Numbered from the stretch's first letter, positions 1,112 through 20,676 are shown. The stretch is DNA of 24,000 bases from an uncultured Gammaproteobacteria bacterium (GCA_964365755.1 CAYIRD010000001.1:3781-27780), one strand, 5' to 3'. Numbers and translations are program-made. The notes: generated by a model from the sequence alone, not told the origin.

Positions 1112-1140
1112 TTGAACTATAGGCTCAATAATGGTATACT
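1112..1140 (+). promoter_or_regulatory. Sigma70-like promoter for the repeat-protein operon (TTGAAC-17 nt-TATACT)
   Basis: -35 TTGAAC at 1112-1117, a 17-nt spacer, and -10 TATACT at 1135-1140. Only 9 nt separate the -10 from the ATG at 1150, and no Shine-Dalgarno lies between them. This implies a leaderless or near-leaderless mRNA. Confidence 0.4.
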
Positions 1141-1149: not shown

Positions 1150-2457
1150 ATGAAAGAGCGTGTCTCTTCTTATGGCTCAGCTTCGGAACAAGCTCAAATT
1201 CCAATTCCCCGCGACAAGCGAGGCAGAATTCAGTGGAGATTACTAAAAGGCGATGTGAATCAGTTAAGAAGTGTGATTGAATTTCATGCTTCTAGTTTAA
1301 TCAGTGAAGGATCCCCGCTGAATAGGGAAGCTTTTAAAAAAGCTGGTCTTCATAGCATTGATGCTGCGATTACTCGATATTATCCAGATGGAATGCTAGG
1401 TTTAAAGATAAACCTCGGATTACAACCCGACAAAAGGCCCAAATCTTATTGGACAAATGAGACAATAGAGGAGGAGACTAGAATTTTTTTGGAAGGTAGA
1501 GCTGAAGGTAAAAATAGGTTAACTCAAAGATTGCTGCAAGGAAACGGAAGGTCAGATTTAGCATCAGCAATAACGAATCATTACCCGGGTGGAATGTACG
1601 TACTTAGAGAGAGACTCGGATATACCAACGAACGAAAACCAGTAGGCTACTGGACTCAAGAGAAAATTGAAGAGGAAGCCAGAGCGTTTTTCGAGCAAGA
1701 AGGAGAGTTAACTCAAAGCCTTTTGTTTCAAAAGGATCGACAAGATTTGAGTACTCAAATTAAACACTATCCGGGAGGAGCCACACAATTAAGAATTAAA
1801 ATAGGAGCAAAAATTTTAAGAAAAAATGGGTATTGGACAGAAGAACAAATAGAAAGTGATACCTCACAATTCTTGCAAGAATATGATGGAATAACAGAAA
1901 ATCTACTCACAATTCATAAAAGACAAGATCTTTTAGGGGCTATTCGTCAGTATTATCCTGGAGGGTTAATAAGATTGAAAGAGAGATTAGGCTTAATCCC
2001 TAAGAATAAGCCTGTTGGATACTGGACTACTGAAAGAATAGAAGAGGAAACCTTAGCTTTTTTGAATCAATTTGGAATACTAACCCCTGGAGAATTAAAA
2101 AAGAATGGAAGGCAAGACTTAATAGGAGCAATAAATGAACACTATCCCGGAGCCTTTACTAAATTGAAAGAACATTTAGGGATCGGGCCGGACAGGAGAT
2201 CTAATGGTCACTGGAGAAATCCTAAAAATGTAGAGGAAGAGGCCCGAATCCTTTTGGACAATGGTTATTCTATAGCAAATAAAGATCTAAGAGCAGAGCA
2301 TTCGGGTTTTATATCCGCTGTTAGGAAATATTATCCGGGAGGCTTAATTGCTTTGAGAGAAAAACTTGGAATTGCGAACGGAGAGAGATTAATTTTAATT
2401 TCTCCGGATGAAGCGAATGAACAATTGAGGAGGCTTTTGGAGGAAAAAGATGAATAA
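1150..2457 (+). CDS. Tandem-repeat protein paralogue 1 (435 aa, 6 repeats) with conserved C-terminal tail ISPDEANEQLRRLLEEKDE; function unknown
   Basis: Long ORF. The repeat-initial Trp falls at aa 29, 101, 168, 229, 292 and 355. The unit consensus is 'GYWTxExIEEEARxF...G.LT...L....RxDL..AI...YPGG...LKE+LGL'. The N-terminal motif is 'PRDKRGRIQW'. Confidence 0.85.
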   Translation: MKERVSSYGSASEQAQIPIPRDKRGRIQWRLLKGDVNQLRSVIEFHASSLISEGSPLNREAFKKAGLHSIDAAITRYYPDGMLGLKINLGLQPDKRPKSYWTNETIEEETRIFLEGRAEGKNRLTQRLLQGNGRSDLASAITNHYPGGMYVLRERLGYTNERKPVGYWTQEKIEEEARAFFEQEGELTQSLLFQKDRQDLSTQIKHYPGGATQLRIKIGAKILRKNGYWTEEQIESDTSQFLQEYDGITENLLTIHKRQDLLGAIRQYYPGGLIRLKERLGLIPKNKPVGYWTTERIEEETLAFLNQFGILTPGELKKNGRQDLIGAINEHYPGAFTKLKEHLGIGPDRRSNGHWRNPKNVEEEARILLDNGYSIANKDLRAEHSGFISAVRKYYPGGLIALREKLGIANGERLILISPDEANEQLRRLLEEKDE

Positions 2458-3799
2458 GGAAAGATCACAAATGACTGGCGAGCAATACTTTTTTTCAGAA
2501 TTACCCCGCAATAGAAGAGGTATCCGCTGGAGCGTTATTCCAGAGGCGAACAGGGAATTAATTATCGAAGGGGAAGCGAGAAAAATATACACTGAGACAG
2601 GAAGATTAAATAAAGGTGCATTTGAAGAGACAGGGAGACAAGATATAATTGGGGCAATTACTCTATATTATCCTGGAAGACTTACAGGTTTAAAGAAAAC
2701 CCTTGGGTTAACTGTACCTGCTACCAGCATACCCATTCAAAGTAGTCAGGAAGAAGATTTTATTGTTAGAGACGCAGGGGGAAGAGTTTTGTGGTCTAAG
2801 ATGGCGCAAGATCAAAGAATGAGGGTAATAGAACAAGAAGCCTTAAGTTTTGTCCAGTCTGGACACTTCACAGATAGTGAACTACGAACAAGAAATTATG
2901 GATTGTTAATGGCTGCAAAAACTTATTACCCTAATGGTATATTAGGTGTTCGAGAAAGGTTAAATTTAAAAGCCAAAAAGACTCCAAAGGGTTATTGGAC
3001 TTTAGAGAAAATAGAAAGAGAAGCAAGAGAGTTTCTTAGTACATATGGAGTAATATCGAGACGTGTTTTGTACCAACATAATCGTGGAGACTTAAGCGAG
3101 GCAGTTAAATCAAAATTTCCAGGTGGTTTTGTAGCGCTAAAAGAGAGACTTGGTGCGGTTCAAGCTAAACCGGGCGGGTTTTGGACAAAAGAAAGAATTG
3201 AACAAGAAGCCCTAGCTTATTATAAAGAGCGTGGTTTTTTAAGCGCAAGACATTTAATAAAAAATGGTCGAGGAGATCTAGCTATGGCAATTTCGCAGAA
3301 TTATCCTGGGAGGATGACGAAACTAAAAGAAGCTCTGGGATTAGACCCATTGCGGAAGGATAATTATTGGACTCAAGAGAAAATAGCAGAAGAGGCAAGA
3401 AAGTTTTACGAAACCGAAGGAGTTTTAACGGCTAAAGCACTGTATAGGATGGGTCGTTCCGACCTGGCATCGCAAATTAGTAGGTCTTACAAAGGAGGAT
3501 ATTTAGCGTTGAAGAGAGAATTGAGAATAGAATTAAGTAAAAGACCTGATGGATATTGGACTCCCGAAGCAATTGAAGCTGAAGTAAGAAATTTTTTAGA
3601 TAATGAAGGGACAATAAGCAGTGGCGTACTACATAGAAAAAAACCAGCCCTATATGCAGCAATAAGGCTTCACTATCCGGGGGGAAAATTAGCGCTTGAA
3701 TCTAAGCTTGGAATTATTAGGCAAGAAACAGAAATGACTGTTTCGCCGGATGAGGCGAATGAACAATTAAGAAGACTTTTGGAGGAAAAAGATGAATAA
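2450..3799 (+). CDS. Tandem-repeat protein paralogue 2 (449 aa, 6 repeats) with C-terminal tail VSPDEANEQLRRLLEEKDE; function unknown
   Basis: The ATG at 2450 overlaps the upstream stop in ATGAATAA, and GGAGG at 2439-2443 lies 6 nt upstream. It has the same repeat consensus, with N-terminal 'PRNRRGIRW'. Confidence 0.85.
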   Translation: MNKERSQMTGEQYFFSELPRNRRGIRWSVIPEANRELIIEGEARKIYTETGRLNKGAFEETGRQDIIGAITLYYPGRLTGLKKTLGLTVPATSIPIQSSQEEDFIVRDAGGRVLWSKMAQDQRMRVIEQEALSFVQSGHFTDSELRTRNYGLLMAAKTYYPNGILGVRERLNLKAKKTPKGYWTLEKIEREAREFLSTYGVISRRVLYQHNRGDLSEAVKSKFPGGFVALKERLGAVQAKPGGFWTKERIEQEALAYYKERGFLSARHLIKNGRGDLAMAISQNYPGRMTKLKEALGLDPLRKDNYWTQEKIAEEARKFYETEGVLTAKALYRMGRSDLASQISRSYKGGYLALKRELRIELSKRPDGYWTPEAIEAEVRNFLDNEGTISSGVLHRKKPALYAAIRLHYPGGKLALESKLGIIRQETEMTVSPDEANEQLRRLLEEKDE

Positions 3800-5657
3800 A
3801 GAATTCGAAGTCAGAACAGACCAACAATTTCAGAATCAGCAATCGTTAGATACTCCTCGAGACAGAAGGGGAAGAATAGACTGGCGCGCTTTAAACAGTA
3901 ATCCGGAACAACTTGTCGCGTATGTAGATTCAGAAATCGAGAGATTTCTTGCCGAGGGCCACCAGTTGTCTTATGTAGGGTTAGTTAAAGGCGAGAGAGA
4001 TTTTCTATACACCGGAGTTAAAAGATATTACCCAGGAGGCATGGATACATTAAAAGAAAAATTTGGGATTGTTAGTGTTACGAAACCAGGGCGGTACTGG
4101 TATGATTCACACAATATTGAGGAAGAAGCGAGAAAGTTGGCAGCAAAGGGTAGCGATTTATCACAACGTAGCCTTAAAGAATTTAGTATGCAATCTATGA
4201 GTTCTGCAGTTAGAAGATACCCAGGAGGTTTGCAAGCCCTTAGAGAAAAATTAGGCATCGCACAAGTAAGAGTTGCTAGAGGATATTGGCAAGTGCCTGC
4301 AAATATTGAGAAGGAGGCAAGAGCATGCCTTGGGAAAGGAATTGATATATCTCAGAAAAGCTTGAAAAAAGCAGGCTTATCCTCATTATCTTCAGCAATA
4401 GCACAAAAATATCCCGGCGGCACGAGCGCTTTAAGAGAAAAATTAGGATTACCAATAAGACGCCCAAATGGATACTGGCAGAATCCGGTAAATGTTGAAC
4501 ATGAAGTTTCAAAAATAATCGATGAAGAGGGAAATTTAACAGAGCCAATAATTAATAGACACAATCCTTCATTGATGCCCGCTATTTATAAACACTATGA
4601 AGGAGGATTGGCTGCGTTGAGAGCTAAATTTGGCCTAAAAGAGACAAAAAAAAAGACAGGATATTGGACAATGGAACAGATAGAATATGAGGCAAGAAAA
4701 TTTTACGAGGAGAGAGGACTATTAACCGGACCGGCTTTGATCACAAACAATAGACAGGACTTGTTGGGGGCTATCCAGAGCAAATACCCAGGAGCTCTGA
4801 TTGGTATTAAAAATAGACTAGAAATTCATTCTGTCAGGCCAAAGGGCTACTGGACACCAGATAACATTGAGAGAGAAGCAGCAAAATTTATAGCTCAACA
4901 TGAAGATTTAAACCATGTTTTGTTAAGGTCCAATAATTTAGCTGGATTCGCTTCTGCAATTTCAAGCTTTTATCCCGGAGGCATGAGAGGTCTACGAAGA
5001 AAACTTGGCTTAGAGGTAAAATCAAGGCCTCTTGAGTTTTGGACAATCGAGAATATAGTAGGAGAAGCAAGAAAAATTTATGAAACTGAAGGAGATTTAT
5101 CGCAAAAAATATTAGTTAGGCTGAGAAATCTTTCTCTTAATTACGCTATTCAAAAGAAGTATCCGGGTGGGATGGATGGATTAAAAAGAGATATAGGGAT
5201 TAGATCTAGCGAAAGACCTAATGGCTATTGGACTCCCGAAACTATTGAACAAGAAGCTAAAAAATTCTATTTAACACACGGGACATTGGACTCAAAAAGC
5301 ATGCGCGGAAAAGGTGAATCTGGCCTTTCATCCGCTATAAGCTCCAAATATCCAGGAGGTTTTAGGGCATTAAAAGGAAAATTCGGGGTTGCGATTAATC
5401 AGCGTCCTCCCAATTATTGGGTTAATCCTGAAAACATCGAACTTGAACTACAGAGATTTCTAGAAGCGGGAAATACATTTTCGGATGAAGATCTCAAAAG
5501 AGCGGGTTTGACAAGCTTGCGGTATGCAATAAGTGAGTATTACCCAGGAGGTATGAGTGCAATAAGAGAAAAGTATGGCCTTACAAAAGGCGAAAGGCAA
5601 GTTGTGATTTCCCCCGATGATGCGAATGAACAATTGAGAAGATTGATTGAAGATTGA
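3792..5657 (+). CDS. Tandem-repeat protein paralogue 3 (621 aa, 9 repeats) with C-terminal tail ISPDDANEQLRRLIED; function unknown
   Basis: It has the same ATGAATAA stop/start overlap and the same GGAGG as the previous junction. There are nine 'YW...YPGG' units and an N-terminal 'PRDRRGRIDW'. Confidence 0.85.
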   Translation: MNKEFEVRTDQQFQNQQSLDTPRDRRGRIDWRALNSNPEQLVAYVDSEIERFLAEGHQLSYVGLVKGERDFLYTGVKRYYPGGMDTLKEKFGIVSVTKPGRYWYDSHNIEEEARKLAAKGSDLSQRSLKEFSMQSMSSAVRRYPGGLQALREKLGIAQVRVARGYWQVPANIEKEARACLGKGIDISQKSLKKAGLSSLSSAIAQKYPGGTSALREKLGLPIRRPNGYWQNPVNVEHEVSKIIDEEGNLTEPIINRHNPSLMPAIYKHYEGGLAALRAKFGLKETKKKTGYWTMEQIEYEARKFYEERGLLTGPALITNNRQDLLGAIQSKYPGALIGIKNRLEIHSVRPKGYWTPDNIEREAAKFIAQHEDLNHVLLRSNNLAGFASAISSFYPGGMRGLRRKLGLEVKSRPLEFWTIENIVGEARKIYETEGDLSQKILVRLRNLSLNYAIQKKYPGGMDGLKRDIGIRSSERPNGYWTPETIEQEAKKFYLTHGTLDSKSMRGKGESGLSSAISSKYPGGFRALKGKFGVAINQRPPNYWVNPENIELELQRFLEAGNTFSDEDLKRAGLTSLRYAISEYYPGGMSAIREKYGLTKGERQVVISPDDANEQLRRLIED

Positions 5658-5712: not shown

Positions 5713-8700
5713 ATGACATCAGAAATGTTAAAAGAAGGACAGCCACAGCCAGTGCAAGAAAATCACGATTCAAGAATCGCGGATTTGAATGCAGTGATTT
5801 TGAAGCCAGAAAAAATTCATGTTCTATTAAGTTTGAAACCGGGTGACCCCGGATACCCGTTTGATAATGGAGAAACATTTGAAGCAAATTATGAATCCTC
5901 AACCGATTTTGGATTGAAATATATCATGGCTAGATCTCTGCTTCAGGATGGTAAGTATGATAAACCACTTCTATTGCTTAGAAAGTTTATTCCAGCAGCG
6001 GATATAATTACTAAGCATAAAGAAGCTGAGGATCGCCAAAAGGCAGAAGAAGAAATTAAATCCGGCTTTGCCCAGGAATTGAAAGATAGATTACGGCTTC
6101 TACTTGTAGAAAAAGGACAAATTAAGCCTGGATCTGAAGAGGATAAAGATGCCCAGAAGGCTCTTATTCGCTTTGCGGAAAGAGATCAAATCCTAAGACA
6201 ACTAATGGAACTTTTACCTATCCATGTAGTAGGTGCCATCACGAGTGCTCAAATGTTTGAAAACGTAACAGACGAGGAAAAAAGAGAAAAATTACGGTCA
6301 TGGACAACTCGAGCACTCAGGCCCTATCTTGGGGATTTACTTGTTCGTAAACCTCAGGGCGATATTAATTTTCGAGATATTATAACATTGGTTCCTGCAA
6401 AGATTTTCGATGATTGGGATACTGCCACAGCGAATATTGTAAGAGATCACTTTGAAAGACTAGCGATGGGCATGTTCACAGAAAGTGAAGAAGAAGGGTT
6501 TAGTAGGCTGGAGGATGCTTTTAGATCAGAACAATCTGAATCTAAAAGGCAATTTCTGCAAGGGGTTCTTGATGAGTTTAAAGAGATTAGAGATGAAGAA
6601 ATTCCTCCAGTTTTCAAAGATCAAGTCGAGGGCTGGTTTTCCCCCACCTCACCTTTCCCATTGTTTCGTCAAAAATATTTTGTCCATGAATTCAAAAAAA
6701 CTCACAGGAAATTTTTAAACGGTGATACCGGAGCTACAAAAACGGCCTGTGCGGACCTTGCAATGGAGTCAGTTGGTGCCTCGCGCGTAACTATTTTTGG
6801 CCCAGCTAAGGCACGGAACACTTGGCCAAGAGAGGCTCGTAAGATTTACCAAGAGGACGCGCAGCCTGACGTTTTTGCTGTAATAAGCGCAAAGGATTTA
6901 GATAATCCCAGAATTAAGACAGCCAAGCAGGTTTATATATCGAGTGAATTAATGGCAAGAGCATGGTCCAACCCAGAATTGAATGCAACCATGACAGAAG
7001 CAGTCATTACTAATAGACATACAGATGGGATAATTTTAGACGAGTACGATGTTTTTCGTCATCAGAGTGCAAAGTCAACTAAGATGCTAAGGCACCTCGT
7101 AACTCAAATACAAGCTAATAACCAAGAGTTAGTACCAATGATACCTTTGACAGCAACACCTCTTTCATCATCCCTTAAAGATTTAGACATCTCGATGGCT
7201 CTTCTTTACCCTGAACGGTTCGCCTTTCCTAAGAGCAACCAAGATGGTAAATTTACTTTTAGTACTCTTGCTTTGATGGATCCAAAAATCGCTTATTCAC
7301 TTCTTTATGGCGAGCAACTTATGATTCAGTGGAGTCTTGAAGATCTTTTCGGGGAGAAAGCACCAAAACTTGATCCTAAAATAGTAAATCTTGAGATGAC
7401 TGCTTCTCAATATGAAATTTATCAATGGGTGCTTTCCCTACCTATAAGAAATCCGCTTGAGAAAATTGCTATGTTAAGAAGTGTTCTTCTTAATCCCAAT
7501 ATAATTAAAAAAACCATTAGGGAAAAGGGGTTAATACCAGAACCGGTTTATGATCCGGCAAAATTTGGGGAGCACTTGGAAGAGCTTTACAATTCATGGT
7601 GGGAATGGTTTGAAACTTCACCTGATAAATTTGAACCCTTTAGCGCCGACTGGATTGCAAAATTTGGAGATGGTCAATTTTTAATACAATTGTTTTTTGA
7701 TAATCGATTTGCGGATGGAATTGAATCGCTAGTTATGCGATACCCACACATCCGAACAGATTGGCAAGAAGCTAAATTCCCTTCTGTAAAATATGAGGCT
7801 ATCAAAAAGTTTTTGGAAAGAACAATAATTAAAACAGAAGATGGCTATGAATTCAGCCAAAAAACAATGATAGTTTCCCCTTTTCACAAAGAAGGTATTA
7901 CCAGGTGGTTTGATGATCCTTACATTAGACCGGAAGATCTTGATAATGATGCCTGGAGCTTATATGAGATGTTGCGCCTCGATTTTTCTAATTTGCCAAA
8001 TGAAGCATCTATTAACATTGATGGACAGAAATCTTTTTCAGCAAGAGACCGTGCGGCACAGGAATGGCGAGAATCAGGGATAAAGAATAACATAGTAGTT
8101 GCTTCTATGCGGTCAATTTATCAGAGTATGGATTGGGCAATTCGCGATACAGAAGATAATAAAAATATTGAAGCTATGAATGTTATATTCTTAGGCTGGC
8201 CTTGGGGATGGGATGAATTTAAGCAGATGTCTGGTCGTTTCTTGCGTCCTGGTCAAACCAAACCTGTTAATATATATATCTTAGAAACAGAGAACTCGAT
8301 TGACAGAGGGTTTAAAGACTTGGTTAAAATCAAAGACCTTCTATCGCAAATGGCTTTGGCAGGAGTTGAGCTCTCAAAAGAAGATCAAGTTTTTTTCAGC
8401 GACGCAACTTCTGCTAAAAGAATTTTAATCGAACATCCGAAAGTCGGCCAGCTTTTCCTTTACGATGCTTTTGCCAAATTAAGGGGTATGTCGGAAGAGG
8501 AGATGAGAATTGAGCTTGCCAAGGAAATTAACGGCAGAACTTTAGGATCTTGGCTTGCCGAATTTTATCTTGATGAAGGGAATGATGAATATCGAATAGT
8601 TGGAAACAACGCTGAATTAGTGAAAAATGTCGTACTTCGCGAACATCCCGAACATGTATTATCTGTTGGCTCAGGGACTTGTATTTTTGCAAGAAAAATT

Positions 8701-9624
8701 GCAAGAACCGGAATCCCAATAATAATTGATAATCTCGATATCAATCTTGAAGTATTACAGCTTGCCAAACAAAAAAATCCAGAAATAGGCAATGTTCTTC
8801 ATGAGAGTGCCACTAAGATTAGTAAAAGAGACGGAACTTATGATGCAATTGAATGTTCTTTTGTGCTCCCACTGATTAAGTTGGTTGACAATGGTAAAGT
8901 TCCAAACGATGCTACAGGTGCCGATAGAGTTAAGACATTACTTGAGATGAATCGTGTTCTTAAAATAGGTGGAACAGCAGTTCTAACATTTCCTGAAAAC
9001 TCTTTTAACGAGGAGTCTTTTGCGAGGTTTACCAAAGCTTTAACAAGGAATTTTGGTTTTCAAGTTGTTGGTCCAACAGGAGTTAGTTTTGCATCTGATA
9101 TAACTCCTAACAAAAAACTTGGATGGATTATAACTGTGAGAAAAATAAATAAACCGGATCTTTCAAATATAGATTCTGAAGATCTTATGTTCGAGACAGA
9201 CCGCGATAGAATTAGCCGTTATAAAGGCAAAAAAAATGGGGCTACCGTAAAAGTTATCGATTACCCGATTTTTGCGTCTAAGGAATTTAGGATTTATAAT
9301 CCATTAACACGTGAAGTCGCAACAAATAAAACTGATGTTGTTGATAAAATTACAGTTACTCCGCAAGAACTTGTTGAATTAATCAAGCCAAATCTTTCAG
9401 ATAGCCAAAGAGAAATTTGGGTGGAGGCCAGGCGTAAAATTGAAAGAGGACTTGATCAAAACTATTCGTTAGCAGAACAAACATTAGCTAGTATTTTTGC
9501 CCGCAGAAGGTTAGATGCTAGCGTCTGGAGTGATGAGGCAGTTAGAAAAATTCTAGATGCTGAAATAAGAAGACTAGTAAGAACATATCGCACAAGGGAG
9601 GCAGAATATGAGGGAACAATTTAG
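5713..9624 (+). CDS. SNF2-family helicase fused to a class I SAM-dependent methyltransferase (1303 aa)
   Basis: SNF2-like motifs: I 'GDTGATKT' (aa 337), Ia 'VTIFGPAKARNTW', II 'ILDEYDVF' (aa ~441), III 'LTATPLSSSLKDLDISMALLYPERF', C-lobe 'NIDGQKSFSARDRAAQEW', and VI-like 'QMSGRFLRPGQTKPVNIYIL' (aa 838). Methyltransferase motifs: motif I 'VLSVGSGTCIFARKIA' (aa 982), 'YDAIECSFVL', and 'MNRVLKIGGTAVLTFP' (aa ~1078). The ~330-aa N-terminal and ~170-aa C-terminal regions are unassigned. Confidence 0.75.
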   Translation: MTSEMLKEGQPQPVQENHDSRIADLNAVILKPEKIHVLLSLKPGDPGYPFDNGETFEANYESSTDFGLKYIMARSLLQDGKYDKPLLLLRKFIPAADIITKHKEAEDRQKAEEEIKSGFAQELKDRLRLLLVEKGQIKPGSEEDKDAQKALIRFAERDQILRQLMELLPIHVVGAITSAQMFENVTDEEKREKLRSWTTRALRPYLGDLLVRKPQGDINFRDIITLVPAKIFDDWDTATANIVRDHFERLAMGMFTESEEEGFSRLEDAFRSEQSESKRQFLQGVLDEFKEIRDEEIPPVFKDQVEGWFSPTSPFPLFRQKYFVHEFKKTHRKFLNGDTGATKTACADLAMESVGASRVTIFGPAKARNTWPREARKIYQEDAQPDVFAVISAKDLDNPRIKTAKQVYISSELMARAWSNPELNATMTEAVITNRHTDGIILDEYDVFRHQSAKSTKMLRHLVTQIQANNQELVPMIPLTATPLSSSLKDLDISMALLYPERFAFPKSNQDGKFTFSTLALMDPKIAYSLLYGEQLMIQWSLEDLFGEKAPKLDPKIVNLEMTASQYEIYQWVLSLPIRNPLEKIAMLRSVLLNPNIIKKTIREKGLIPEPVYDPAKFGEHLEELYNSWWEWFETSPDKFEPFSADWIAKFGDGQFLIQLFFDNRFADGIESLVMRYPHIRTDWQEAKFPSVKYEAIKKFLERTIIKTEDGYEFSQKTMIVSPFHKEGITRWFDDPYIRPEDLDNDAWSLYEMLRLDFSNLPNEASINIDGQKSFSARDRAAQEWRESGIKNNIVVASMRSIYQSMDWAIRDTEDNKNIEAMNVIFLGWPWGWDEFKQMSGRFLRPGQTKPVNIYILETENSIDRGFKDLVKIKDLLSQMALAGVELSKEDQVFFSDATSAKRILIEHPKVGQLFLYDAFAKLRGMSEEEMRIELAKEINGRTLGSWLAEFYLDEGNDEYRIVGNNAELVKNVVLREHPEHVLSVGSGTCIFARKIARTGIPIIIDNLDINLEVLQLAKQKNPEIGNVLHESATKISKRDGTYDAIECSFVLPLIKLVDNGKVPNDATGADRVKTLLEMNRVLKIGGTAVLTFPENSFNEESFARFTKALTRNFGFQVVGPTGVSFASDITPNKKLGWIITVRKINKPDLSNIDSEDLMFETDRDRISRYKGKKNGATVKVIDYPIFASKEFRIYNPLTREVATNKTDVVDKITVTPQELVELIKPNLSDSQREIWVEARRKIERGLDQNYSLAEQTLASIFARRRLDASVWSDEAVRKILDAEIRRLVRTYRTREAEYEGTI

Positions 9625-10144
9625 CGAACCACTTTCTCCACAAGAAAGAACAAGGCAACTTTTTTCTAAAAACTTTGATGACTTCGCGGAGAATCTTAGG
9701 GGCAAGGTTGTTGTTCTATTGGGAACAGATAAAAAAATTACATTAGATCTGGTTGAAGGATGGAATTTAGAATCAAACATGAAAACACACAAAAACTTTC
9801 TGCAACTTAATCCAGGAGACTGGGAAGCTAGCAGAATACCCATAAGGCAAATGCGTCAATCACTAATTATTGCGAAAGATGGAGACCGGGTTGGTGCATG
9901 TGCCAGAGTAGTTAGGGCTTCTTACTTTGATAATGATCAAGGACAGTTTATTCAAATGCCAAGGGAAGGCGACATTGCCAATTATTTAGGCCTTGGCGAT
10001 AACGAATTAGCAAGGCTGGTCTACATGGATGATTCGGATTCGCTGTATTTGTTACGAGGGGAACAAGGTTCACAAAATATAAGCCCCGATGAGGCAAACG
10101 AACAACTAAGAAGACTTTTGGAGGAAAGAGATAATGAGTCCTGA
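9608..10144 (+). CDS. 178-aa protein of unknown function carrying the shared C-terminal tail ISPDEANEQLRRLLEERDNES
   Basis: GGGAGG at 9596-9601 lies 6 nt before the ATG at 9608. The ORF overlaps the helicase gene by 17 nt. I recognise no domain. The tail is identical in peptide to those of the repeat proteins. Confidence 0.7.
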   Translation: MREQFSEPLSPQERTRQLFSKNFDDFAENLRGKVVVLLGTDKKITLDLVEGWNLESNMKTHKNFLQLNPGDWEASRIPIRQMRQSLIIAKDGDRVGACARVVRASYFDNDQGQFIQMPREGDIANYLGLGDNELARLVYMDDSDSLYLLRGEQGSQNISPDEANEQLRRLLEERDNES

Positions 10145-10556
10145 AGGGAGAAGAAGAGTAGAATTTACATTTAATACAAGACCTGATATTCTTGCTGGTC
10201 GTCTTATTGGAGTACGAATAAGGCTTGGTAATCAATTGGCCGAGATTGTGGGAACAGAGTGGTATCCTGCAGAAGAAAATACGAAAGGGACATATAGGAA
10301 AGTTTATGAATCAGAGCCGGGTACATTAGTCGCTACAGGATATAGAAATTCAGTCTTGCCCTTAGTTGCTGCAAAAGGCGGAGCTTGCGTTCTTATTCGC
10401 GAAATTGAGGTACGAAATCAGGAAGGAAAACTTGAAACTGTAAAAGGGCCTGGAAGAGTTGGAGAAAAATTGGGTTTGAAAAAAGGTGACGCGCGGAATC
10501 TAAGTATGGAAGATCCCCATGATTTAATATTTAGTTTGGTAGAGATCAATCGATAG
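10134..10556 (+). CDS. Truncated DNA-3-methyladenine glycosylase (MPG/AAG family)-like protein, 140 aa
   Basis: It aligns by eye to the MPG family. 'LAGRLIGV...AEIVGTEWY' matches 'LLG..L...GRIVETEAY', 'EPGTL' matches 'KPGTLYVY', 'GGACVLIREIE' matches 'GACVLLRALEP', and 'GPGRVGEKLGL' matches 'GPSKLCQALAI'. It is shorter than typical family members (about 190-220 aa from memory) and appears to lack the C-terminal segment. GGAGG at 10120-10124 lies 9 nt before the ATG. Confidence 0.6.
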   Translation: MSPEGRRRVEFTFNTRPDILAGRLIGVRIRLGNQLAEIVGTEWYPAEENTKGTYRKVYESEPGTLVATGYRNSVLPLVAAKGGACVLIREIEVRNQEGKLETVKGPGRVGEKLGLKKGDARNLSMEDPHDLIFSLVEINR

Positions 10557-10587: not shown

Positions 10588-10824
10588 TTGGGGTTTTTGT
10601 GGTTGACAAAGATTGTATGGATATCATACAATATCCCCATAAATACTACAGTTAATATTTCGATTCCAACGAAATTATATAAAGATGCAAAGAGATTTGC
10701 TGCCGAATATGGATATTCATCAATGAGCGAATTAATTAGGCAAGCTTTAAGAATAGAATTATATTCTGCTCCCGAGCTTGGGAGGAAAGGTAAAGCTCTC
10801 AAGAGAATTAATAAAAATATTTAA
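10588..10824 (+). CDS. Small ribbon-helix-helix (CopG/Arc-like) protein; start codon uncertain
   Basis: 'VNISIPTKLYKDAKRFAAEYGYSSMSELIRQALRIEL' fits the strand-helix-helix RHH pattern. The only in-frame canonical-type starts are TTGs at 10588, 10597 and 10603, upstream of or overlapping the promoter-like element. No ATG or GTG lies near the domain start. Confidence 0.4.
   Translation: MGFLWLTKIVWISYNIPINTTVNISIPTKLYKDAKRFAAEYGYSSMSELIRQALRIELYSAPELGRKGKALKRINKNI
10603..10632 (+). promoter_or_regulatory. Sigma70-like promoter TTGACA-18 nt-TACAAT
   Basis: Consensus -35 at 10603-10608 and -10 TACAAT at 10627-10632. It lies inside the 5' part of the listed 10588 ORF. It could drive the RHH ORF and/or a long ftsZ leader. 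Confidence 0.4.
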
Positions 10825-10903: not shown

Positions 10904-11998
10904 ATGTTAATAAAACCTCAGACTACTTCTTTTGCTAAAATTCGTGTAATTGGTGTTGGCGGTGGAGGAGGAAATGCTATCGGTACAATGATCTCTGACG
11001 GACAGATTAACGGTGTTGAATTTATGTCCATTAACACAGATGCCCAAGCACTTCTTAATAATCAGGCAAACATAAAAATTCAAATTGGAGAAAACTTGAC
11101 CCGCGGTCTTGGATCAGGTGGAGATCCTGAAGTAGGCGTTAAGGCAGCTGAAGAGTCTCGCGAAAAAATTAAGGAGATGCTTGAGGGTACAGATATGGTT
11201 TTCTTGACGGCAGGAATGGGCGGCGGAACGGGAACAGGAGCAACTCCCATTATTGCAGAAGTAGCAAAAGACGTAGGTGCACTAACCGTCTCCGTTGTTA
11301 CAAAGCCATTTCTCTTTGAAGGTACACGCAGAATGGTTGCGGCAGAAGAAGGAATAGAAAGATTAAAAGAGAAGGTCGATACATTAATTGTTATTCCAAA
11401 TCAGAGAATTCTTGAAGTGATAGACAAAAAATTGTCCCTTCTTGAAGCATTTAGGGTCGCTGATTCAGTTCTTAATCACGGGGTGCAAGGAATCTCCGAT
11501 TTAATAACTATCCCGGGGTTGATTAACGTTGATTTTGCAGATGTCAAAACAATTATGACAAATGCAGGATCTGCATTAATGGGAATTGGGATTGGAGTAG
11601 GTGAGAATAGAGCGCAATTGGCGGCTAGGCAGGCAACATCCTCGCCGTTACTTGAGGTCTCAATGGAGGGCGCACGTGGAGTTCTCTACAACATTATTGG
11701 GGGAACAGACCTTTCAATGTCTGAGGTCAATGAAGCATCAAAAATTATTGCATCTGCGGCAGATCCCGATGCAAATATTATTTTTGGTGCAACAATTGAT
11801 GAGAATCTTCATGATCAAATCCGCATTACGGTTATCGCAACCGGTTTTGATGAGTCAAGAAGAAAGCTTCAGGAGTTAGTCGAGAAACCGGAAGAGATAT
11901 TGGCAGAAAATGGTGACCAAGGCCCGCCATCAACGTCTCCCGAAGACGAAAAAGAATCAATCTTTGACATCCCCGCCTTTTTACGCCAAAAGAATTAA
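10904..11998 (+). CDS. ftsZ: Cell division protein FtsZ (364 aa)
   Basis: It carries 'GVGGGGGNA', the tubulin signature 'GGGTGTGA', the T7-loop region 'VIPNQRIL', an acidic disordered linker, and the C-terminal conserved peptide '[11 protein letters not shown]'. Confidence 0.97.
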
Positions 11999-12004: not shown

Positions 12005-12295
12005 CTATTTATATTCCCTGCTTGAACCAGAATGTTTGGAGAGTGCAAATAAAATAATAATTTGCTTCTTAGATTCGTCAAAATCCCAGATAATTCGAAG
12101 GTCACCAGTTATCCAGCTGCTCCATTTTTTCCCAAAATTCCGAGTATTTACTTTATGACTTTTTAAGGAAGGATAGAACGGATCGTTTTTTATTAATCTC
12201 AATACTTTTTTCGTCCGTTTTTCAAATTCTTTATTACCCTTAATTATTGATTTATAAGTGGAAGGGAACGTGCTTGCAAAATGGAGAGCGTACAT
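12005..12295 (-). CDS. Type II toxin, RelE/StbE/YafQ-family mRNA interferase-like (96 aa)
   Basis: 'PSLKSHKV...WSSWITGDLRIIWDFDESKKQIIILFALSKH' matches the RelE/YafQ-type pattern. It lies 2 nt downstream of a small RHH-type ORF, the classical antitoxin-toxin order. Confidence 0.75.
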   Translation of the reverse strand: MYALHFASTFPSTYKSIIKGNKEFEKRTKKVLRLIKNDPFYPSLKSHKVNTRNFGKKWSSWITGDLRIIWDFDESKKQIIILFALSKHSGSSREYK

Positions 12296-12297
12296 GC

Positions 12298-12558
12298 TTA
12301 AAGGCTTGCGAGATATCTATCAAGTTCTTCATCAGTTTTGATGGCTGTATATCGTCCATTTTTATAATCTTCCAATCCCTTTGCAATCACTTTTTCGGTT
12401 TCTTCATCTACTAAAGGTATATCTTCGATCTCTTTTTTATATTTTTCGGCAAGGGCAACCTTTATAATTTCGGCCTCAGATAACACACGATATTTGCTTC
12501 TCAAAAAAGCTAACACTTCAGCAAGCTCTGGTGTTTTATTTAATCTTATTTGTGCCAT
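12298..12558 (-). CDS. Type II antitoxin, RHH-type (87 aa from the ATG at 12558)
   Basis: 'MAQIRLNKTPELAEVLAFLRSKYRVLSEAEIIKVALAE' is strand-helix-helix and is followed by an acidic C-terminal region. I chose the ATG at 12558 over the listed 12594 start because a consensus promoter occupies 12566-12594. Confidence 0.7.
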   Translation of the reverse strand: MAQIRLNKTPELAEVLAFLRSKYRVLSEAEIIKVALAEKYKKEIEDIPLVDEETEKVIAKGLEDYKNGRYTAIKTDEELDRYLASL

Positions 12559-12565
12559 GCTACCT

Positions 12566-12594
12566 ATATTAGGGCATTTACTACCTAATGTCAA
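12566..12594 (-). promoter_or_regulatory. Promoter of the toxin-antitoxin operon (TTGACA-17 nt-TAATAT on the minus strand)
   Basis: The reverse complement reads TTGACA (12594-12589), a 17-nt spacer, then TAATAT (12571-12566). Seven nt later comes the ATG at 12558, so the mRNA is predicted to be leaderless. Confidence 0.55.
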
Positions 12595-13934: not shown

Positions 13935-14387
13935 ATGATGCGCAATCAATTGGCTGTCCTGATATTAATAGCTTCTGTAGTTCTCCTAGTTCTACTAGAT
14001 AGAGGCACAAAGGTATCAGATAATTCGGTTAAAACCGAACCCGCCAAAGTCGAACCTATTCAAGGGACTGACTTCAAACAAGTAACGTTGACTGCAAAAG
14101 CCGCAGAGCGGCTCGGGATTAAAACAGTTCCGGTTCGTGAAGAAATATCAGCCAGAACGGACACTCTAAAGCTTGTTGTTCCTTACGATTCAATAATCTA
14201 CGGTCTAAACGGCGAAACATGGGTATACATAAACCCTAAATCTCTTGTTTTCGTTCGGTCTCCGATAAGTATCGACTACATAGTAGGAGATTTTGCGATT
14301 CTCTCTGAGGGCCCAACTTCTGGTACAAAGGTCGTAACAGTCGGAGTAGCACAGCTGTATGGTATAGATACAGGAATTGGGAAATAA
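13935..14387 (+). CDS. Small membrane-anchored periplasmic adaptor-like protein (150 aa), probable minimal membrane-fusion partner of the RND pumps
   Basis: It has an N-terminal TM helix 'LAVLILIASVVLLVLL'. 'AERLGIKTVPV' and the C-terminal 'VGDFAILSEGPTSGTKVVTVGVAQLYG' resemble the ends of HlyD/CusB-type adaptors. The long alpha-hairpin is absent. The gene sits directly upstream of the RND genes. Confidence 0.5.
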   Translation: MMRNQLAVLILIASVVLLVLLDRGTKVSDNSVKTEPAKVEPIQGTDFKQVTLTAKAAERLGIKTVPVREEISARTDTLKLVVPYDSIIYGLNGETWVYINPKSLVFVRSPISIDYIVGDFAILSEGPTSGTKVVTVGVAQLYGIDTGIGK

Positions 14388-14408
14388 CAAAAGAAGATTT
14401 TCTGCCCT

Positions 14409-17400
14409 ATGCAATGGATTATTAGATCGAGCTTAAGACTTCAATTTATCTTACTTATTCTTGCTGCAGCTCTTGTGGTTTTTGGTATCCGGGAACTTCG
14501 GACTATGCCCATTGATGTCTACCCTGAGTTTAATCCGCCGATGGTGAACGTTCAGACTGAAGCCCTCGGGCTTTCCGCAGCGGAAGTGGAAGCTCTTGTT
14601 ACTGTTCCACTCGAGGCAGATCTTCTTAATGGTGTAGCATGGGTTGATCAAATTTACTCTGAGTCGGTCACTGGTCTATCGTCAATTCACCTCATCTTCA
14701 AACCCGGGACAGATCCTATTCGGGCACGTCAAATGGTGCAGGAGCGTCTGACGCAGACGTATGCTTTGCCAAATGTCTCAAAACCTCCCACGATGCTCCC
14801 GCCCCTATCGACCACGAGCCGCGTCATGATGGTTGGACTTTCCTCGGATAAACTTTCCCTTATTGAAATAGGAGTATTGGCCCGCTGGAATATTACGCCC
14901 CGCCTGATGGGGGTGCCTGGAGTTGCTAATGTGGCTATTTGGGGACAGAGAGAGCGGCAATTGCAGGTACAAGTGGATCCGGAGAAATTATATGCTCAGG
15001 GCGTTACCCTTTCACAAGTTATCAAAACAACAGGAGAAGCCTTGTGGTTTTCGCCATTAAGCTTTCTAGAATCATCGTCGCCCGGAACAGCCGGGTGGAT
15101 TGACACTCCCAATCAAAGGCTTGGTATCCAACACGAGCTGCCCATCTCTGAGCCTTCGGATCTGGCACAGGTGGTTCTCGCGGACAACACGGAGTTAAGA
15201 CTCGGTGATGTCGCAAAGGTGGTGGAAGATCATCAGCCGCTCATTGGGGAAGCTATCTTGAAGCGCGGTCCAGGACTTTTGCTCGTCATTGAAAAATTTC
15301 CTGGGGCAAACATAAAAGAAGTTACACGTAGGGTAGAGGAAGCACTTGTTGCCATGCGGCCCGGTCTTACCGGTATAGATATTGATACTACTATTTTCCG
15401 TCCTGCTACCTACATCGAGAAGGCAACTCACAATCTCACCCTGATGTTGCTTGTTGGCACTATGCTTGCGATTTTGGTTTTTTATTTTTTTTTCTTTGAG
15501 TGGCGTATAGCACTCATCAGCGCGGCTTCGATGCTTTTATCATTACTAACAGCAGGGTTCGTGCTTTATCTTCGCGGGACAACTTTCAATACGATGACTC
15601 TTTTGGGATTCATTATCGCAATCGGCGTTGTCATGGACGATGCCGTTATCGGCGTAGAAAATATCTATCGGCGTTTTCATCAGAATGGTAAAAAGAAGCG
15701 TAGCCAGATGTTTGTTACTTCGGTTATTTTAGAAGCGACTAGTGAGTTGCAAGGACCATTAGTTTTCACAACGCTGATGATTCTTCTCACAGTGTCACCA
15801 GTATTTTTTATGCAAGGAGAGTCTGGTGCATTTTTTCAACCATTTGCCACATCTTTTGTGTTGGCAGTCTTGAGCTCTACGATAATTGCTCTTATCTTAA
15901 CCCCAGTATTAAGCCTGACTTTTTCAAGAGCTTTCCTCAAGCGGCACGAATCACCTCTTGTGAGTTGGTTGAACCTAAGCCTGAGGAGACTTCTTGTGCC
16001 GGCTTTTAAGGTGCCGAAACAAACATACATCATAGTCGTTGTCGCCGTTTTTGTAGGTTTGTCAGTTTTACCAACTCTTAGTGTTTCACTCGTTCCAAAG
16101 TTTAGGCAGACAGATCTATTGATCAAATGGGAGGGCCCACCTGGCACATCCCGTCTTGAAATGAGCCGGATTATAAACCAGGCAAGTCAAGAGTTACGGG
16201 AAGTTACTGGTGTCACAAACGTCGGTGCTCATCTCGGGCGAGCCATCACTGGGGATAAAGTTGCCGGAATCAATTCCGCTGATCTTTGGATCAGTCTTGA
16301 TTCTCAAGCTGACCTAGACATAGCAACAAAAAACATTCAGGAAGTAATTGACGGTTACCCCGGGCTTTTTCATCAGGTCCAGACGTACCAACCAAAAAGA
16401 ACGCGAGAAGCACTCACGGATGAAAATGAAACCCTAAGCGTTCGGATTTATGGTCATGATTTGAAAGTTCTTGAAAGACTTGGGAAGGAAGTTAGGAAGG
16501 CAATTTCAGGGATCGACGGTGTAGTTGCCACTGCGGAAGAACCACAAGTCGAGGAACCGCAGGTGCAAATCAAAGTGGATCTTAAGAGAGCTCAAGCTTA
16601 TGGGCTCAAACCAGGCGATATACGTCGACAAGCAACCACATTACTGTCAGGCATCCAAGTCGGCAGTCTTTATGAAGACCAAAAAGTATTTGAAGTAGTG
16701 GTATGGGGCGAACCTGAAATCCGTAATAGCCTTACCGATATTCGTGATCTAATGATTGAAACACCCGCTTTCGCACAAGTGCCTTTGGAGGAGTTGGCAG
16801 AAGTTAGTATCGCGCCTGCTCCAATTATCATTAAACGCGACAGTGTTTCCCGTTTTCTTGATGTTGAAGCTCGTGTGCCTGGTCGTGATCTTGTTTCGGT
16901 CGCGGCTGATATAAGAAGTAAACTCAAGTCAGTCGAATTTCCTCTTGAATACCATATGGAGGTTCTCGGTGCATCTATTGAGAAACAAGCGTCGCGCGCG
17001 CGTATGTTGGTAGTTATCGTTACCGCGGCAGTCGGGATTTTTCTTCTCATGCAGGCAGCCTTTGGTAGCTGGCGTTTGGCAATAGTATCTCTTCTGAGTT
17101 TACCTATGGCGCTTGTGGGGGGTGTTTTGGCAGCTTTTCTAACCGGTGGTATTCTATCGCTCGGTTCACTAGTTGGATTTCTTACAATACTTGGAATTGC
17201 AGTAAGAAACAGTATCTTACTCATCAGTCACTACCAGCATCTTGAGAGACTTGAAGGCCAAACCTTTGGTCCCAAACTCATCCTGCGTGGTACTCGCGAA
17301 CGACTAGCACCAATTCTTGCGACTGCACTCGCATTAGGGCTTTTTCTTCTTCCAGCAGTACTATTTGGTAATATTACTGGGGTTGAGATAGTGCAACCGG

Positions 17401-20610: not shown

Positions 20611-20621
20611 AGGTAAAGATA

Positions 20622-20650: not shown

Positions 20651-20676
20651 GCAAAAGCTTAACAAATCAACCTAAA

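What the first reader, a model, noticed from the sequence alone, without database searches (positions are those of the whole stretch)
1150..5657. Three paralogous proteins built from 21 copies of a 61-72 aa 'YWT-E-IE-EA...YPGG...LKEKLGL' repeat
The unit consensus read from the translations is (K/R)P.GYW(T).E.IE.EA+.F....G.L(T/S)...L......DL..AI...YPGG...L+.+LG(L/I). Copy numbers are 6, 6 and 9. In paralogue 1 the Trp landmarks sit at aa 29, 101, 168, 229, 292 and 355. The landmark spacing (W-T-x-E-x-I...F....G...T....L......I...aromatic-G-G...L...G-L) resembles what I recall of the 'homing endonuclease associated repeat' (Pfam HNH_repeat), a small helical module. That resemblance is from memory and is untested. 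The variable copy number and diverged surface positions between conserved landmarks suggest a modular binding array. Each protein also begins with 'PR(D/N)+RG(R)I.W'.
Basis: partly seen in the sequence, partly recalled or inferred. Interest (0 to 1): 0.7.

Follow-up and report, generated by a model that had tools for sequence, protein, structure and literature searches.

The report
Repeat-array adaptor proteins of a helicase–methylase cassette
Three neighbouring genes of a tiny groundwater bacterium encode strings of a small four-helix module related to a repeat found in homing endonucleases, and they look like interchangeable targeting subunits, probably DNA-binding, that plug into a giant motor–methyltransferase enzyme through a shared tail peptide, in a gene set nobody has described.

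Summary
Three overlapping + strand genes (1150-2457, 2450-3799, 3792-5657) encode 6, 6 and 9 copies of a ~62-aa unit.

The unit does not hit Pfam directly. It is nevertheless a longer, divergent relative of the homing-endonuclease-associated repeat PF18780 (hhalign 99.4% to units of a PF18780-positive protein). A relative also combines it with a LAGLIDADG domain. AlphaFold gives a confident four-helix module strung on flexible linkers, with no solved structural match.

These proteins belong to a conserved, relocating cassette of Patescibacteria. It has 1-4 variable "adaptor" proteins, then a ~1300-aa SNF2-ATPase/class-I methyltransferase (5713-9624), then a small acidic protein (9608-10144).

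All adaptors and the small protein end in the same amphipathic tail (SPDEANEQLRRLLEE). The tail is held by protein-level selection and changes in concert within each locus. One relative fuses six units directly to a homologous SNF2–methyltransferase.

Best reading: these are nuclease-free DNA-targeting adaptors that dock by their tail and steer the motor–methylase. DNA binding, the docking partner and the biological role (defence, anti-defence or epigenetic) are inferred, not shown.

This is a new variant of a known repeat in a seemingly undescribed system.

The parts
1112..1140 (+). Promoter-like site (TTGAAC-17-TATACT with TG) just upstream of the first repeat gene
   Evidence: Consensus scan only. 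The number of such sites in the region is no higher than in shuffles, so this is weak evidence.
1150..2457 (+). Adaptor protein 1: 435 aa, 6 units (aa 22-408, nt 1213-2373), pI 9.0
   Evidence: AlphaFold full-length model: mean pLDDT 78.9, pTM 0.32, with confidence dips at the inter-unit linkers.
2398..2454 (+). Tail of protein 1: ISPDEANEQLRRLLEEKDE, predicted helix at aa 419-434
2450..3799 (+). Adaptor protein 2: 449 aa, 6 units (aa 18-422, nt 2501-3715), pI 9.6. Its start overlaps the stop of gene 1 by 8 nt.
   Evidence: The Pfam HAMP_2 hit (25.8 bits, no stretch significant on its own) lies inside an ordinary unit and is taken as spurious.
3740..3796 (+). Tail of protein 2: VSPDEANEQLRRLLEEKDE
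3792..5657 (+). Adaptor protein 3: 621 aa, 9 units (aa 24-597, nt 3861-5582), pI 9.5. Its start overlaps the stop of gene 2 by 8 nt.
5607..5654 (+). Tail of protein 3: ISPDDANEQLRRLIED
5713..9624 (+). Giant partner protein (1303 aa, pI 5.5). It has an unknown N-terminal region of ~310 aa, a divergent SNF2-type ATPase (about aa 314-890), a class-I SAM methyltransferase (about aa 970-1103) and an unknown C-terminal region.
   Evidence: - Pfam: Methyltransf_11 1.9e-9 and SNF2-rel_dom 6.5e-5. These families are seen in 18 and 12 of 19 relatives.
- Residues invariant across 19 relatives: Walker A K343-T344, D443-E444, the TATP motif, motif VI Q838/G841/R842, and methyltransferase G986xG988 and D1009.
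- PHROG_62 'DNA helicase' 5.6e-19.
- PADLOC mad2 1.4e-11, on the methyltransferase domain only.
9608..10144 (+). Small acidic protein (178 aa, pI 4.8) of unknown fold. It ends in the same tail, ISPDEANEQLRRLLEERDNES (nt 10079-10141). Its start overlaps the end of the giant gene.
   Evidence: The family is conserved downstream of the giant gene in 9 of 12 further loci (alignment A6). No Pfam, PDB, PADLOC or PHROG match.
10134..10556 (+). 140-aa ORF overlapping the end of the small-protein gene by 11 nt. Membership of the cassette is doubtful.
   Evidence: No gene of this kind follows the small-protein gene in the called-gene lists of the other loci. There is only a faint NCBIfam match to 3-methyladenine DNA glycosylase (E 0.025) and no Pfam hit.

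Best explanation
The three genes encode nuclease-free arrays of a four-helix module that is a longer, divergent branch of the homing-endonuclease-associated repeat.

They are the variable 'adaptor' subunits of a three-part accessory cassette of Patescibacteria that sits at a different genomic site in each genome. The parts are one to four adaptors, one giant SNF2-ATPase/methyltransferase, and one small acidic protein.

Proposed mechanism:
1. The basic repeat array binds nucleic acid, most likely double-stranded DNA. The variable faces of helices 2 and 3 of successive units would give each paralogue its own target preference.
2. The short C-terminal amphipathic helix shared by all adaptors docks them, one at a time, onto a common partner. 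That partner is most likely the giant protein.
3. The SNF2 motor and its methyltransferase are thereby brought to the sites chosen by the adaptor.
4. The small protein carries the same tail and would compete for, or regulate, that docking site.

Shown here: the repeat architecture, its relationship to PF18780, the conserved gene partnership, the fusion, the tail and its concerted change.

Inferred: DNA binding, the identity of the docking partner, what gets methylated, and the biological role. The role could be defence, anti-restriction for a mobile element, or epigenetic control.
For: **1. Relationship to a homing-endonuclease repeat.**
- hhalign gives 99.4% probability to units of a PF18780-positive protein.
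- Relative P0045 joins the unit to a LAGLIDADG domain.

**2. Conserved partnership.**
- In 12 further loci the giant gene is preceded by 1-4 tail-bearing proteins. In 9 of those 12 it is followed by the small protein.
- The flanking genes differ every time: ftsA/ftsZ here, RhuM, a conjugative element, an integrase, rpoB.

**3. Rosetta-stone fusion.**
- P0064 carries six units fused N-terminally to an SNF2 + Helicase_C + Methyltransf_11 protein.
- That part aligns collinearly with window giant aa 309-1145 (E 2e-15 and 9e-14).
- Its locus has no separate adaptors.
- P0088 fuses 13 units to an SNF2 domain.

**4. The tail.**
- The four window tails are nearly identical as peptides but differ at many synonymous sites. 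This points to selection on the peptide, not gene conversion.
- AlphaFold predicts the tail as a helix.
- The tail is present in at least 111 of 164 collected relatives.
- Adaptor and small-protein tails change together from locus to locus:
  - EANEQLRRLLEE in the window
  - TDLERLLEL / TDLEKLLEV
  - AYRALSVFF / AHALEQYF
  - DLDRFFL / DLDKFFL
  - INIIDQVLG / TNVLDQIIG
- Tail-bearing adaptors with quite different bodies occupy the same position in other loci.

**5. Consistent with nucleic-acid binding.**
- The adaptors have pI 9.0-9.6, against an acidic giant and small protein.
- The most variable columns fall on helix 2 and the exposed face of helix 3.
- Internal units have no fixed positional identity between proteins.

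**6. The enzyme looks active.**
- ATPase and SAM-binding motifs are invariant across 19 relatives.
Against: - No experiment or structural match shows that this module binds DNA. Foldseek against the PDB and against viral models gave nothing significant. The only sequence hint is a marginal match to a homeodomain (E 0.03).
- PF18780 itself has no solved structure, and I know of no tested function for it.
- The methyltransferase is of the Methyltransf_11/25 type and lacks a (D/N/S)PP(Y/F/W) motif. DNA methylation is therefore not established.
- No nuclease is recognisable in the cassette.
- Concerted change of the tails would also arise if the docking partner were a host protein that differs between organisms. 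A complex could not be modelled here.
- In one locus (L003) and in the fusion locus (L015) the small protein lacks the tail.
Confidence: 0.5

Rival explanations
1. The arrays are protein-binding sensors rather than DNA binders. Each paralogue would recognise a different invader protein and report to the SNF2–methyltransferase effector through the tail, as in defence systems with diversified sensor domains.
For: - Several diversified paralogues occur per locus.
- Adaptors with unrelated, non-repeat bodies occupy the same slot in L009, L012 and L014.
- Some loci sit next to mobile-element or defence-island markers such as RhuM, toxin–antitoxin genes and integrases.
- There is no structural match to a known DNA-binding fold.
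Against: - The unit is homologous to a repeat tied to homing endonucleases.
- It is fused directly to SNF2 motors, which act on DNA.
- The arrays are basic.
- No PADLOC model matches any adaptor.
Confidence: 0.15
2. The cassette is an establishment or anti-restriction module of a conjugative element, like the DarB-type methylase–helicase dyad. The shared C-terminal tail would be a secretion signal that sends the adaptors and the small protein through a type IV secretion system into the recipient cell.
For: - In L006 the cassette lies inside a conjugative element, between T4SS pilin/VirB4/TraC-like genes and a relaxase, coupling protein and serine recombinase.
- SNF2–methylase pairs are a known theme of phages, plasmids and conjugative transposons (PMC5512222).
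- PHROG_62 'DNA helicase' matches the giant protein.
- T4SS signals are typically C-terminal (my own knowledge, not checked here).
Against: - Only one of 13 loci shows T4SS genes within 10 kb. The window has none in 24 kb.
- The giant protein itself lacks the tail.
- Nothing similar was found in the plasmid, phage or IMG/VR collections.
- The fusion protein shows that adaptor and enzyme act together in cis.
Confidence: 0.12
3. The tail docks the adaptors and the small protein onto a general host hub, for example the sliding clamp or another replication or division factor, rather than onto the giant protein. Gene linkage would then reflect a shared pathway only.
For: - The motif is a short C-terminal helix with hydrophobic residues at i, i+3 and i+4 (LxxLL, LxxFF). 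This is like many hub-binding peptides. The comparison with clamp-binding motifs is from my own knowledge.
- Tails differ between organisms, as host hubs do.
- The window cassette sits between ftsA and ftsZ.
Against: - The spacing (QLRRLL) does not fit the bacterial clamp motif QLxLF / QLxLxL as I recall it.
- The ftsA–ftsZ position is not seen in the other loci whose flanks were read.
- Where the array is fused to the enzyme, there are no separate adaptors and the small-protein homologue has no tail.
Confidence: 0.1
4. The three genes are decayed remnants of homing endonucleases that lost their nuclease, and they have no function of their own.
For: The repeat family is linked to homing endonucleases, and no catalytic domain is present in the window proteins.
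Against: - The reading frames are long and intact and overlap by 8 nt, which suggests translational coupling.
- N-terminal and C-terminal motifs are conserved across relatives of ~40% identity.
- The tail is under protein-level selection.
- The gene partnership is conserved in 13 loci.
Confidence: 0.03

Closest known systems
Pfam PF18780, HNH_repeat (homing endonuclease associated repeat)
   Same: - It has the same landmarks in the same order: basic-P-x-G-Y-W, an acidic helix 1, G-x-(L/F)-(T/P), L-x-x-A-I, an aromatic-G-G turn, and L-x-x-x-L-G.
- Profile-profile probability to units of a PF18780-positive protein is 99.4%.
- It co-occurs with a LAGLIDADG domain in a relative.
   Different: - The window unit is ~62 aa, against a 54-position Pfam model.
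- It has YPGG where the Pfam-positive units compared here (P0132) have HGG.
- It is not detected by the Pfam model.
- It forms arrays of 6-9 units with no nuclease.
- It carries a dedicated first unit (PRDxRGRIRW) and a docking tail.
DarB-type methylase–helicase dyad of phages, plasmids and conjugative elements (Iyer et al. 2017, PMC5512222)
   Same: An SNF2-family ATPase is joined to a SAM methyltransferase in one giant protein that is carried around by horizontal transfer. One locus lies inside a conjugative element.
   Different: - The methyltransferase is Methyltransf_11/25-like, not an adenine DNA methylase with a DPPY-type motif.
- The enzyme comes with separate, multi-paralogue tail-bearing partners and a small protein. 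The passages of that paper I searched do not mention such partners.
- There are no matches in the plasmid or phage collections.
Type I restriction-modification (HsdS specificity subunit + HsdM + HsdR)
   Same: The logic is the same: an exchangeable, variable specificity subunit directs a complex that contains a methyltransferase and an SF2 motor.
   Different: - There is no sequence relationship.
- No HsdS target-recognition domains, no N6 methylase motif and no nuclease were found.
- The specificity element is a tandem array that docks by a peptide tail.
TALE and TALE-like modular DNA-binding repeats
   Same: Both are tandem helical units of fixed length with conserved cores and a few hypervariable exposed positions. 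Copy number varies.
   Different: - The unit is ~62 aa with four helices, not 33-35 aa with two (figures for TALE from my own knowledge).
- There is no sequence similarity.
- AlphaFold does not predict a rigid superhelix (pTM 0.32).
- A one-unit-one-base code is pure speculation.
MADS and DISARM defence systems
   Same: The methyltransferase domain matches the PADLOC model of mad2, the N6 DNA methylase of MADS (E 1.4e-11). The ATPase faintly matches DrmD (E 0.004).
   Different: Only single domains match. None of the other MADS or DISARM genes is present.

Membership tests
Pfam HNH_repeat (PF18780) | Match to the Pfam model at its gathering score (26 bits) | tested here: not met
   There is no PF18780 hit on the three proteins at E <= 1, nor on five single units at E <= 10.
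Pfam HNH_repeat (PF18780) | Homology to bona fide members, tested by profile against profile | tested here: met
   - P0132 passes the gathering score (42.6 bits). Its Pfam match at aa 540-584 coincides with our unit at aa 533-588.
- hhalign of 89 window-type units against 9 P0132 units gives 99.4% probability, E 1.4e-21.
Pfam HNH_repeat (PF18780) | Association with a homing-endonuclease catalytic domain in the same protein | tested here: not met
   The window proteins have no nuclease domain. The association is seen only in a relative, P0045 (LAGLIDADG_3 29 bits, plus HNH_repeat 24.9 bits, plus three window-type units).
DarB-type SNF2–methylase dyad / polyvalent proteins | SWI2/SNF2-type ATPase with intact motifs | tested here: met
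   SNF2-rel_dom or DEAD is found in 12 and 10 of 19 relatives. Walker A, Walker B, motif III and motif VI are invariant. PHROG_62 matches at 5.6e-19.
DarB-type SNF2–methylase dyad / polyvalent proteins | Adenine DNA methylase domain | tested here: not met
   The domain is Methyltransf_11/25-like. Its nearest solved relatives are small-molecule methyltransferases and spermidine synthases. The motif IV region reads CSFVLPL, with no DPPY-type motif (sequence).
Type I restriction-modification | HsdS, HsdM and HsdR families present | tested here: not met
   No such hit was found in Pfam, NCBIfam or PADLOC for any cassette protein.
Known anti-phage defence systems (PADLOC 2.0) | Matches to the full gene set of a described system | tested here: not met
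   Only partial domain hits were found: mad2, a faint DrmD and a faint Cas3, all on the giant protein. There was nothing for the adaptors or the small protein.
Sequence-specific DNA-binding repeat arrays (TALE-like in function) | Demonstrated nucleic-acid binding with per-unit specificity | not testable with these tools
   Only indirect support is available: basic pI, variable faces of helices 2 and 3, fusion to SNF2 motors, and the link to homing endonucleases.

The most novel reading that the evidence does not exclude
The cassette is a new kind of programmable DNA-modification or defence machine. In it, free-standing tandem-repeat proteins act as plug-in guides. Each array would read a long DNA site through the variable faces of its units, and a universal C-terminal peptide would plug any guide into one SNF2 translocase–methyltransferase. 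A cell could then retarget the enzyme simply by swapping or duplicating adaptor genes. The small tail-bearing protein would act as a competitive regulator of the docking site.
Probability: 0.25. Interest if true: 0.85.

Novelty: new variant of a known kind. Interest (0 to 1): 0.66.

Why it matters
PF18780 is a catalogued repeat for which I know of no solved structure or tested function. Here it appears stripped of any nuclease, multiplied into arrays, and tied to a motor–methyltransferase by gene order, by fusion and by a shared peptide. That combination gives the repeat a testable job.

If the arrays read DNA, they would be a further natural modular DNA-recognition scaffold. The tail would be a simple, portable way to couple recognition modules to an enzyme.

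The cassette would also add an unannotated multi-gene system to Patescibacteria. These organisms have very small genomes, and their accessory gene sets are mostly uncharacterised.

The tail covariation offers an immediate experiment: swapping tails between systems should swap partners.

Tried and rejected
**Direct family searches.**
- Pfam, NCBIfam, PADLOC and PHROG scans of the repeat proteins gave no meaningful family.
- The HAMP_2 hit on protein 2 lies inside an ordinary unit and is rejected as spurious.

**Fold searches.**
- The full-length model against the PDB gave only generic helical solenoids (E > 0.3).
- The single-unit model against the PDB (best E 6) and against viral models (best E 0.56) gave nothing usable.
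- A PDB profile search with the unit gave only a marginal homeodomain match (E 0.03). I do not use it as evidence of an HTH fold.

**A link to cell division.** I considered this because the genes sit between ftsA and ftsZ. I rejected it because the other loci whose flanks were read have different neighbours.

**Insertion scars.** I found no repeats of 9 bases or more shared in direct orientation between the two junction regions, and only one 10-base inverted match.

**Searches for more loci.**
- The GTDB species genomes gave one locus.
- JGI metagenomes gave one.
- IMG/VR gave none that is relevant.
- Plasmids and phages gave none.

**The small protein.** A word-index search found only the protein itself. 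A PDB profile search found nothing.

**Other checks.**
- Giant proteins longer than 1350 aa do not contain units.
- GIY-YIG in P0046 was my reading by eye. Pfam did not confirm it, so it is not used.
Full report
**1. The observation**

The window carries three + strand ORFs at 1150-2457, 2450-3799 and 3792-5657 (435, 449 and 621 aa). Each overlaps the next by 8 nt.

- YPGG-type turns occur 6, 6 and 9 times.
- Trp sits at aa 29, 101, 168, 229, 292 and 355 of protein 1.
- The N-terminal motifs are PRDKRGRIQW, PRNRRGIRW and PRDRRGRIDW.

Cutting the proteins at the landmarks gives 21 units. Most are 62-64 aa. The first unit of each protein was cut at 70 aa. Unit 2 of protein 2 is 86 aa because of an insertion.

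An HMM built only from protein 3 finds six units each in proteins 1 and 2 (319 and 285 bits). The best of 400 shuffled sequences scores 6.8 bits.

The duplications are old. Median identity between units is 35%, and there is no tandem repeat at the DNA level.

**2. What the unit is**

Direct scans fail. No Pfam family, and specifically not HNH_repeat, matches the proteins or single units.

Three indirect lines connect the unit to PF18780:
- *A relative with a nuclease domain.* P0045, from a Levybacteria genome, contains a LAGLIDADG_3 domain (29 bits), one near-threshold HNH_repeat (24.9 vs 26 bits) and three window-type units.
- *A Pfam-positive protein found by our profile.* A profile of 17 window units was searched against 1.84 billion representative proteins. 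It finds 1925 proteins at E <= 0.001. One of them, P0132, passes Pfam's HNH_repeat gathering score (42.6 bits). The Pfam match lies in register on one of our units.
- *Profile against profile.* hhalign between 89 window-type units and the nine P0132 units gives 99.4% probability, E 1.4e-21.

The unit is therefore a longer YPGG branch of the homing-endonuclease-associated repeat superfamily, which the present Pfam model does not reach.

PF18780 was listed in 2021 among repeat families without a known structure (PMC8078820).

**3. Structure**

AlphaFold on a single unit with 89 aligned units gives pLDDT 89.7 and pTM 0.70. It has four helices: a long helix 1, a short helix 2, then helices 3 and 4.

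The whole of protein 1 gives mean pLDDT 78.9 but pTM 0.32. Confidence dips at each linker, and the tail forms a terminal helix at aa 419-434. This describes well-folded beads with no confidently fixed mutual arrangement.

**4. Context: a conserved cassette**

Downstream of the three genes lie:
- a 1303-aa protein (5713-9624);
- a 178-aa protein (9608-10144).

The whole block sits between ftsA (20-1075) and ftsZ (10904-11998).

The large protein has a divergent SNF2-type ATPase and a Methyltransf_11/25 domain. Across 19 relatives of 35-53% identity the following are invariant:
- the Walker A Lys-Thr;
- the DE of Walker B;
- TATP;
- motif VI;
- the SAM-binding GxG and the acidic residue that follows it.

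The same gene order recurs in twelve further loci from groundwater and other metagenomes and from genome assemblies labelled Curtissbacteria and Daviesbacteria. The order is one to four upstream proteins without Pfam domains, then the giant gene. In 9 of the 12 loci a 138-212-aa protein follows.

The neighbours differ each time:
- RhuM (L001);
- a conjugative element with T4SS, relaxase, coupling protein and recombinase (L006);
- a tyrosine integrase (L009);
- Fic/MazE and rpoB (L008).

The cassette is therefore accessory and relocates between genomes. The position between ftsA and ftsZ is incidental.

It is rare:
- 33 giant-protein clusters were found among 5.8 billion proteins.
- The one pattern that could be used found a single locus among 185,579 species genomes.
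- Nothing was found in the plasmid, phage or IMG/VR collections.

**5. The tail**

All three repeat proteins and the unrelated 178-aa protein end in (I/V)SPD(E/D)ANEQLRRL(L/I)E(E/D).

The four coding stretches differ at many synonymous positions. For example, Ser is TCT, TCG, TCC or AGC, and Leu is TTG, TTA or CTA. The peptide is therefore kept by selection, not by recent gene conversion.

The same tail, or a variant, ends at least 111 of the 164 relatives collected. Most of the remainder have recognisable variants.

The tail changes in concert within each locus, and this includes the small protein:

| Locus | Adaptor tail(s) | Small-protein tail |
|---|---|---|
| window | EANEQLRRLLEE (three adaptors) | EANEQLRRLLEE |
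| L008 | TPTDLERLLEL | APTDLEKLLEV |
| L009 | AYRALSVFF / AYEALSSYF / ALERLESYF | AHALEQYF |
| L010 | AEKDLDRFFL | ADQDLDKFFL |
| L012 | VAINIIDQVLGE | TATNVLDQIIGR |

The common denominator is a short amphipathic helix with hydrophobic residues at i, i+3 and i+4.

In L007, L009, L012 and L014 the tail is carried by proteins whose bodies are not built from this unit. These include other repeats, some of them HTH-like. The tail, not the repeat, defines the slot. The repeat array is one of several bodies that can occupy it.

**6. Physical coupling to the enzyme**

P0064 (1417 aa) has six window-type units fused to the N-terminus of an SNF2 + Helicase_C + Methyltransf_11 protein. That portion aligns collinearly with window giant residues 309-1145 (25% identity, E 2e-15 and 9e-14).

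Its locus has no separate adaptors, and its small-protein homologue has no tail.

P0088 fuses 13 units of the HGG subtype to an SNF2 domain. However, its helicase is not detectably related to the window giant.

Such fusions are the classical sign that separately encoded partners work in one complex.

**7. Is the array a nucleic-acid binder?**

The evidence is indirect only:
- The unit's relatives sit in homing endonucleases and on SNF2 motors.
- The arrays are basic (pI 9.0, 9.6 and 9.5), while the giant protein (pI 5.5) and the small protein (pI 4.8) are acidic.
- Conserved basic residues sit in the linker and at positions 37, 46, 56 and 58.
- The highest-entropy columns are 29, 30, 33, 35, 38, 41, 42 and 45. 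These are helix 2 and one face of helix 3. The helix cores (W8, I13, F20, L32, L40, A43, I44, Y48) are fixed.
- Between six-unit proteins only the first unit, and weakly the last, keep a positional identity. Internal units are equally distant from one another. This fits modules that diversify independently.

**8. Most likely mechanism and its limits**

I conclude that the three proteins are interchangeable targeting adaptors. The array would bind DNA, and the tail would dock onto a shared site, most likely on the giant protein. This would bring the SNF2 translocase and its methyltransferase to adaptor-chosen sites. The small protein would compete at the same site.

- *Shown:* the architecture, the homology, the partnership, the fusion, and the tail's selection and covariation.
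- *Inferred:* DNA binding, the docking partner, the substrate and the role.

The methyltransferase is not of a recognised DNA-methylase type. Its domain does match the PADLOC model of mad2, the N6 DNA methylase of MADS, at 1.4e-11. No nuclease is recognisable.

Rival explanations are protein-sensing adaptors of a defence system, a conjugative establishment module with the tail as a secretion signal, and docking to a host hub. They are listed with their tests.

**9. Comparison with what is known**

- The repeat is a new branch of PF18780.
- The enzyme resembles the methylase–helicase dyad of mobile elements (PMC5512222) but has a different methyltransferase.
- The logic resembles type I restriction-modification specificity subunits, without any sequence relationship.
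- No PADLOC system matches.
- The full-text library holds one paper that names PF18780, and it does not discuss function. A search combining SNF2, methyltransferase, Patescibacteria and defence found one paper, which does not describe this cassette.

I rate the finding a new variant of a known kind, inside a gene system that appears undescribed.

Noticed in passing
window 9608-10144: A 178-aa acidic protein of unknown fold ends in the same tail as the three repeat proteins (ISPDEANEQLRRLLEERDNES). Its family follows the giant gene in 9 of the 12 other loci, and its tail changes together with the adaptor tails.
   Followed up: yes
window 5713-9624: A 1303-aa SNF2-type ATPase is fused to a Methyltransf_11/25 domain. 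About 310 aa at the N-terminus and about 200 aa at the C-terminus match nothing. The family has 33 clusters, all about 1270-1480 aa.
   Followed up: yes
window 10134-10556: A 140-aa ORF overlaps the end of the small-protein gene by 11 nt. It has a faint match to 3-methyladenine DNA glycosylase (NCBIfam E 0.025) and no Pfam hit. No gene of this kind follows the small-protein gene in the other loci.
   Followed up: partly
window 10588-10824 (promoter-like site 10603-10632): A small ORF whose C-terminal 57 aa match the ribbon-helix-helix family RHH_1 (E 6.6e-4, just under the Pfam cut-off). The best sigma-70-like site of the region (TTGACA-18-TACAAT) lies at the start of this ORF as listed, so a later start codon is likely. 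It sits in the gap before ftsZ.
   Followed up: partly
window 12005-12594, minus strand: A two-gene pair: a YafQ-like toxin (E 4.4e-5, below the Pfam cut-off) and an upstream 98-aa protein with no family. This is probably a toxin-antitoxin pair just downstream of ftsZ.
   Followed up: partly
window 13935-23604: An efflux block. It holds a 150-aa secreted-looking protein, two AcrB-family transporters (14409-17501 and 17407-20610, the first at E 7e-196), a 296-aa unknown, an HlyD-type adaptor (21606-22889) and an ABC ATPase (22879-23604). GC content is higher here (0.46-0.49) than in the cassette (0.38-0.40).
   Followed up: partly
L007 11116-15314 (Curtissbacteria JACPEV010000008.1): Three further tail-bearing proteins have bodies built from other repeats. 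One is a ~65-aa unit with the pattern W...YF...GR..G...LY. One is a module beginning RGGRIRW..ENE.LGI that is also found at the N-terminus of the LAGLIDADG protein P0045. One is an HTH-like unit, PEGW.T...LA. None has a Pfam family.
   Followed up: partly
L009 4447-9970: Three paralogous 600-625-aa proteins without repeats and without any Pfam match occupy the adaptor slot. They end in a different tail type (AYRALSVFF-like), which is shared with their small protein. A tyrosine integrase lies just upstream.
   Followed up: partly
proteins P0019, P0029, P0036, P0087, P0118, P0128: A minority of repeat-array relatives end in a quite different tail, (I/T)(S/P)F(D/E)(D/E)F(L/V). This may mark a second docking partner or system subtype.
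   Followed up: no
L006 1-21305 (GCA_964489875.1): This is an apparent integrative conjugative element in a metagenome-assembled genome. It has a TrbC/T4SS pilin, a VirB4-like ATPase, a TraC-like protein, an M23 peptidase, a Replic_Relax relaxase, a coupling protein and a serine recombinase. The cassette is embedded between them.
   Followed up: partly
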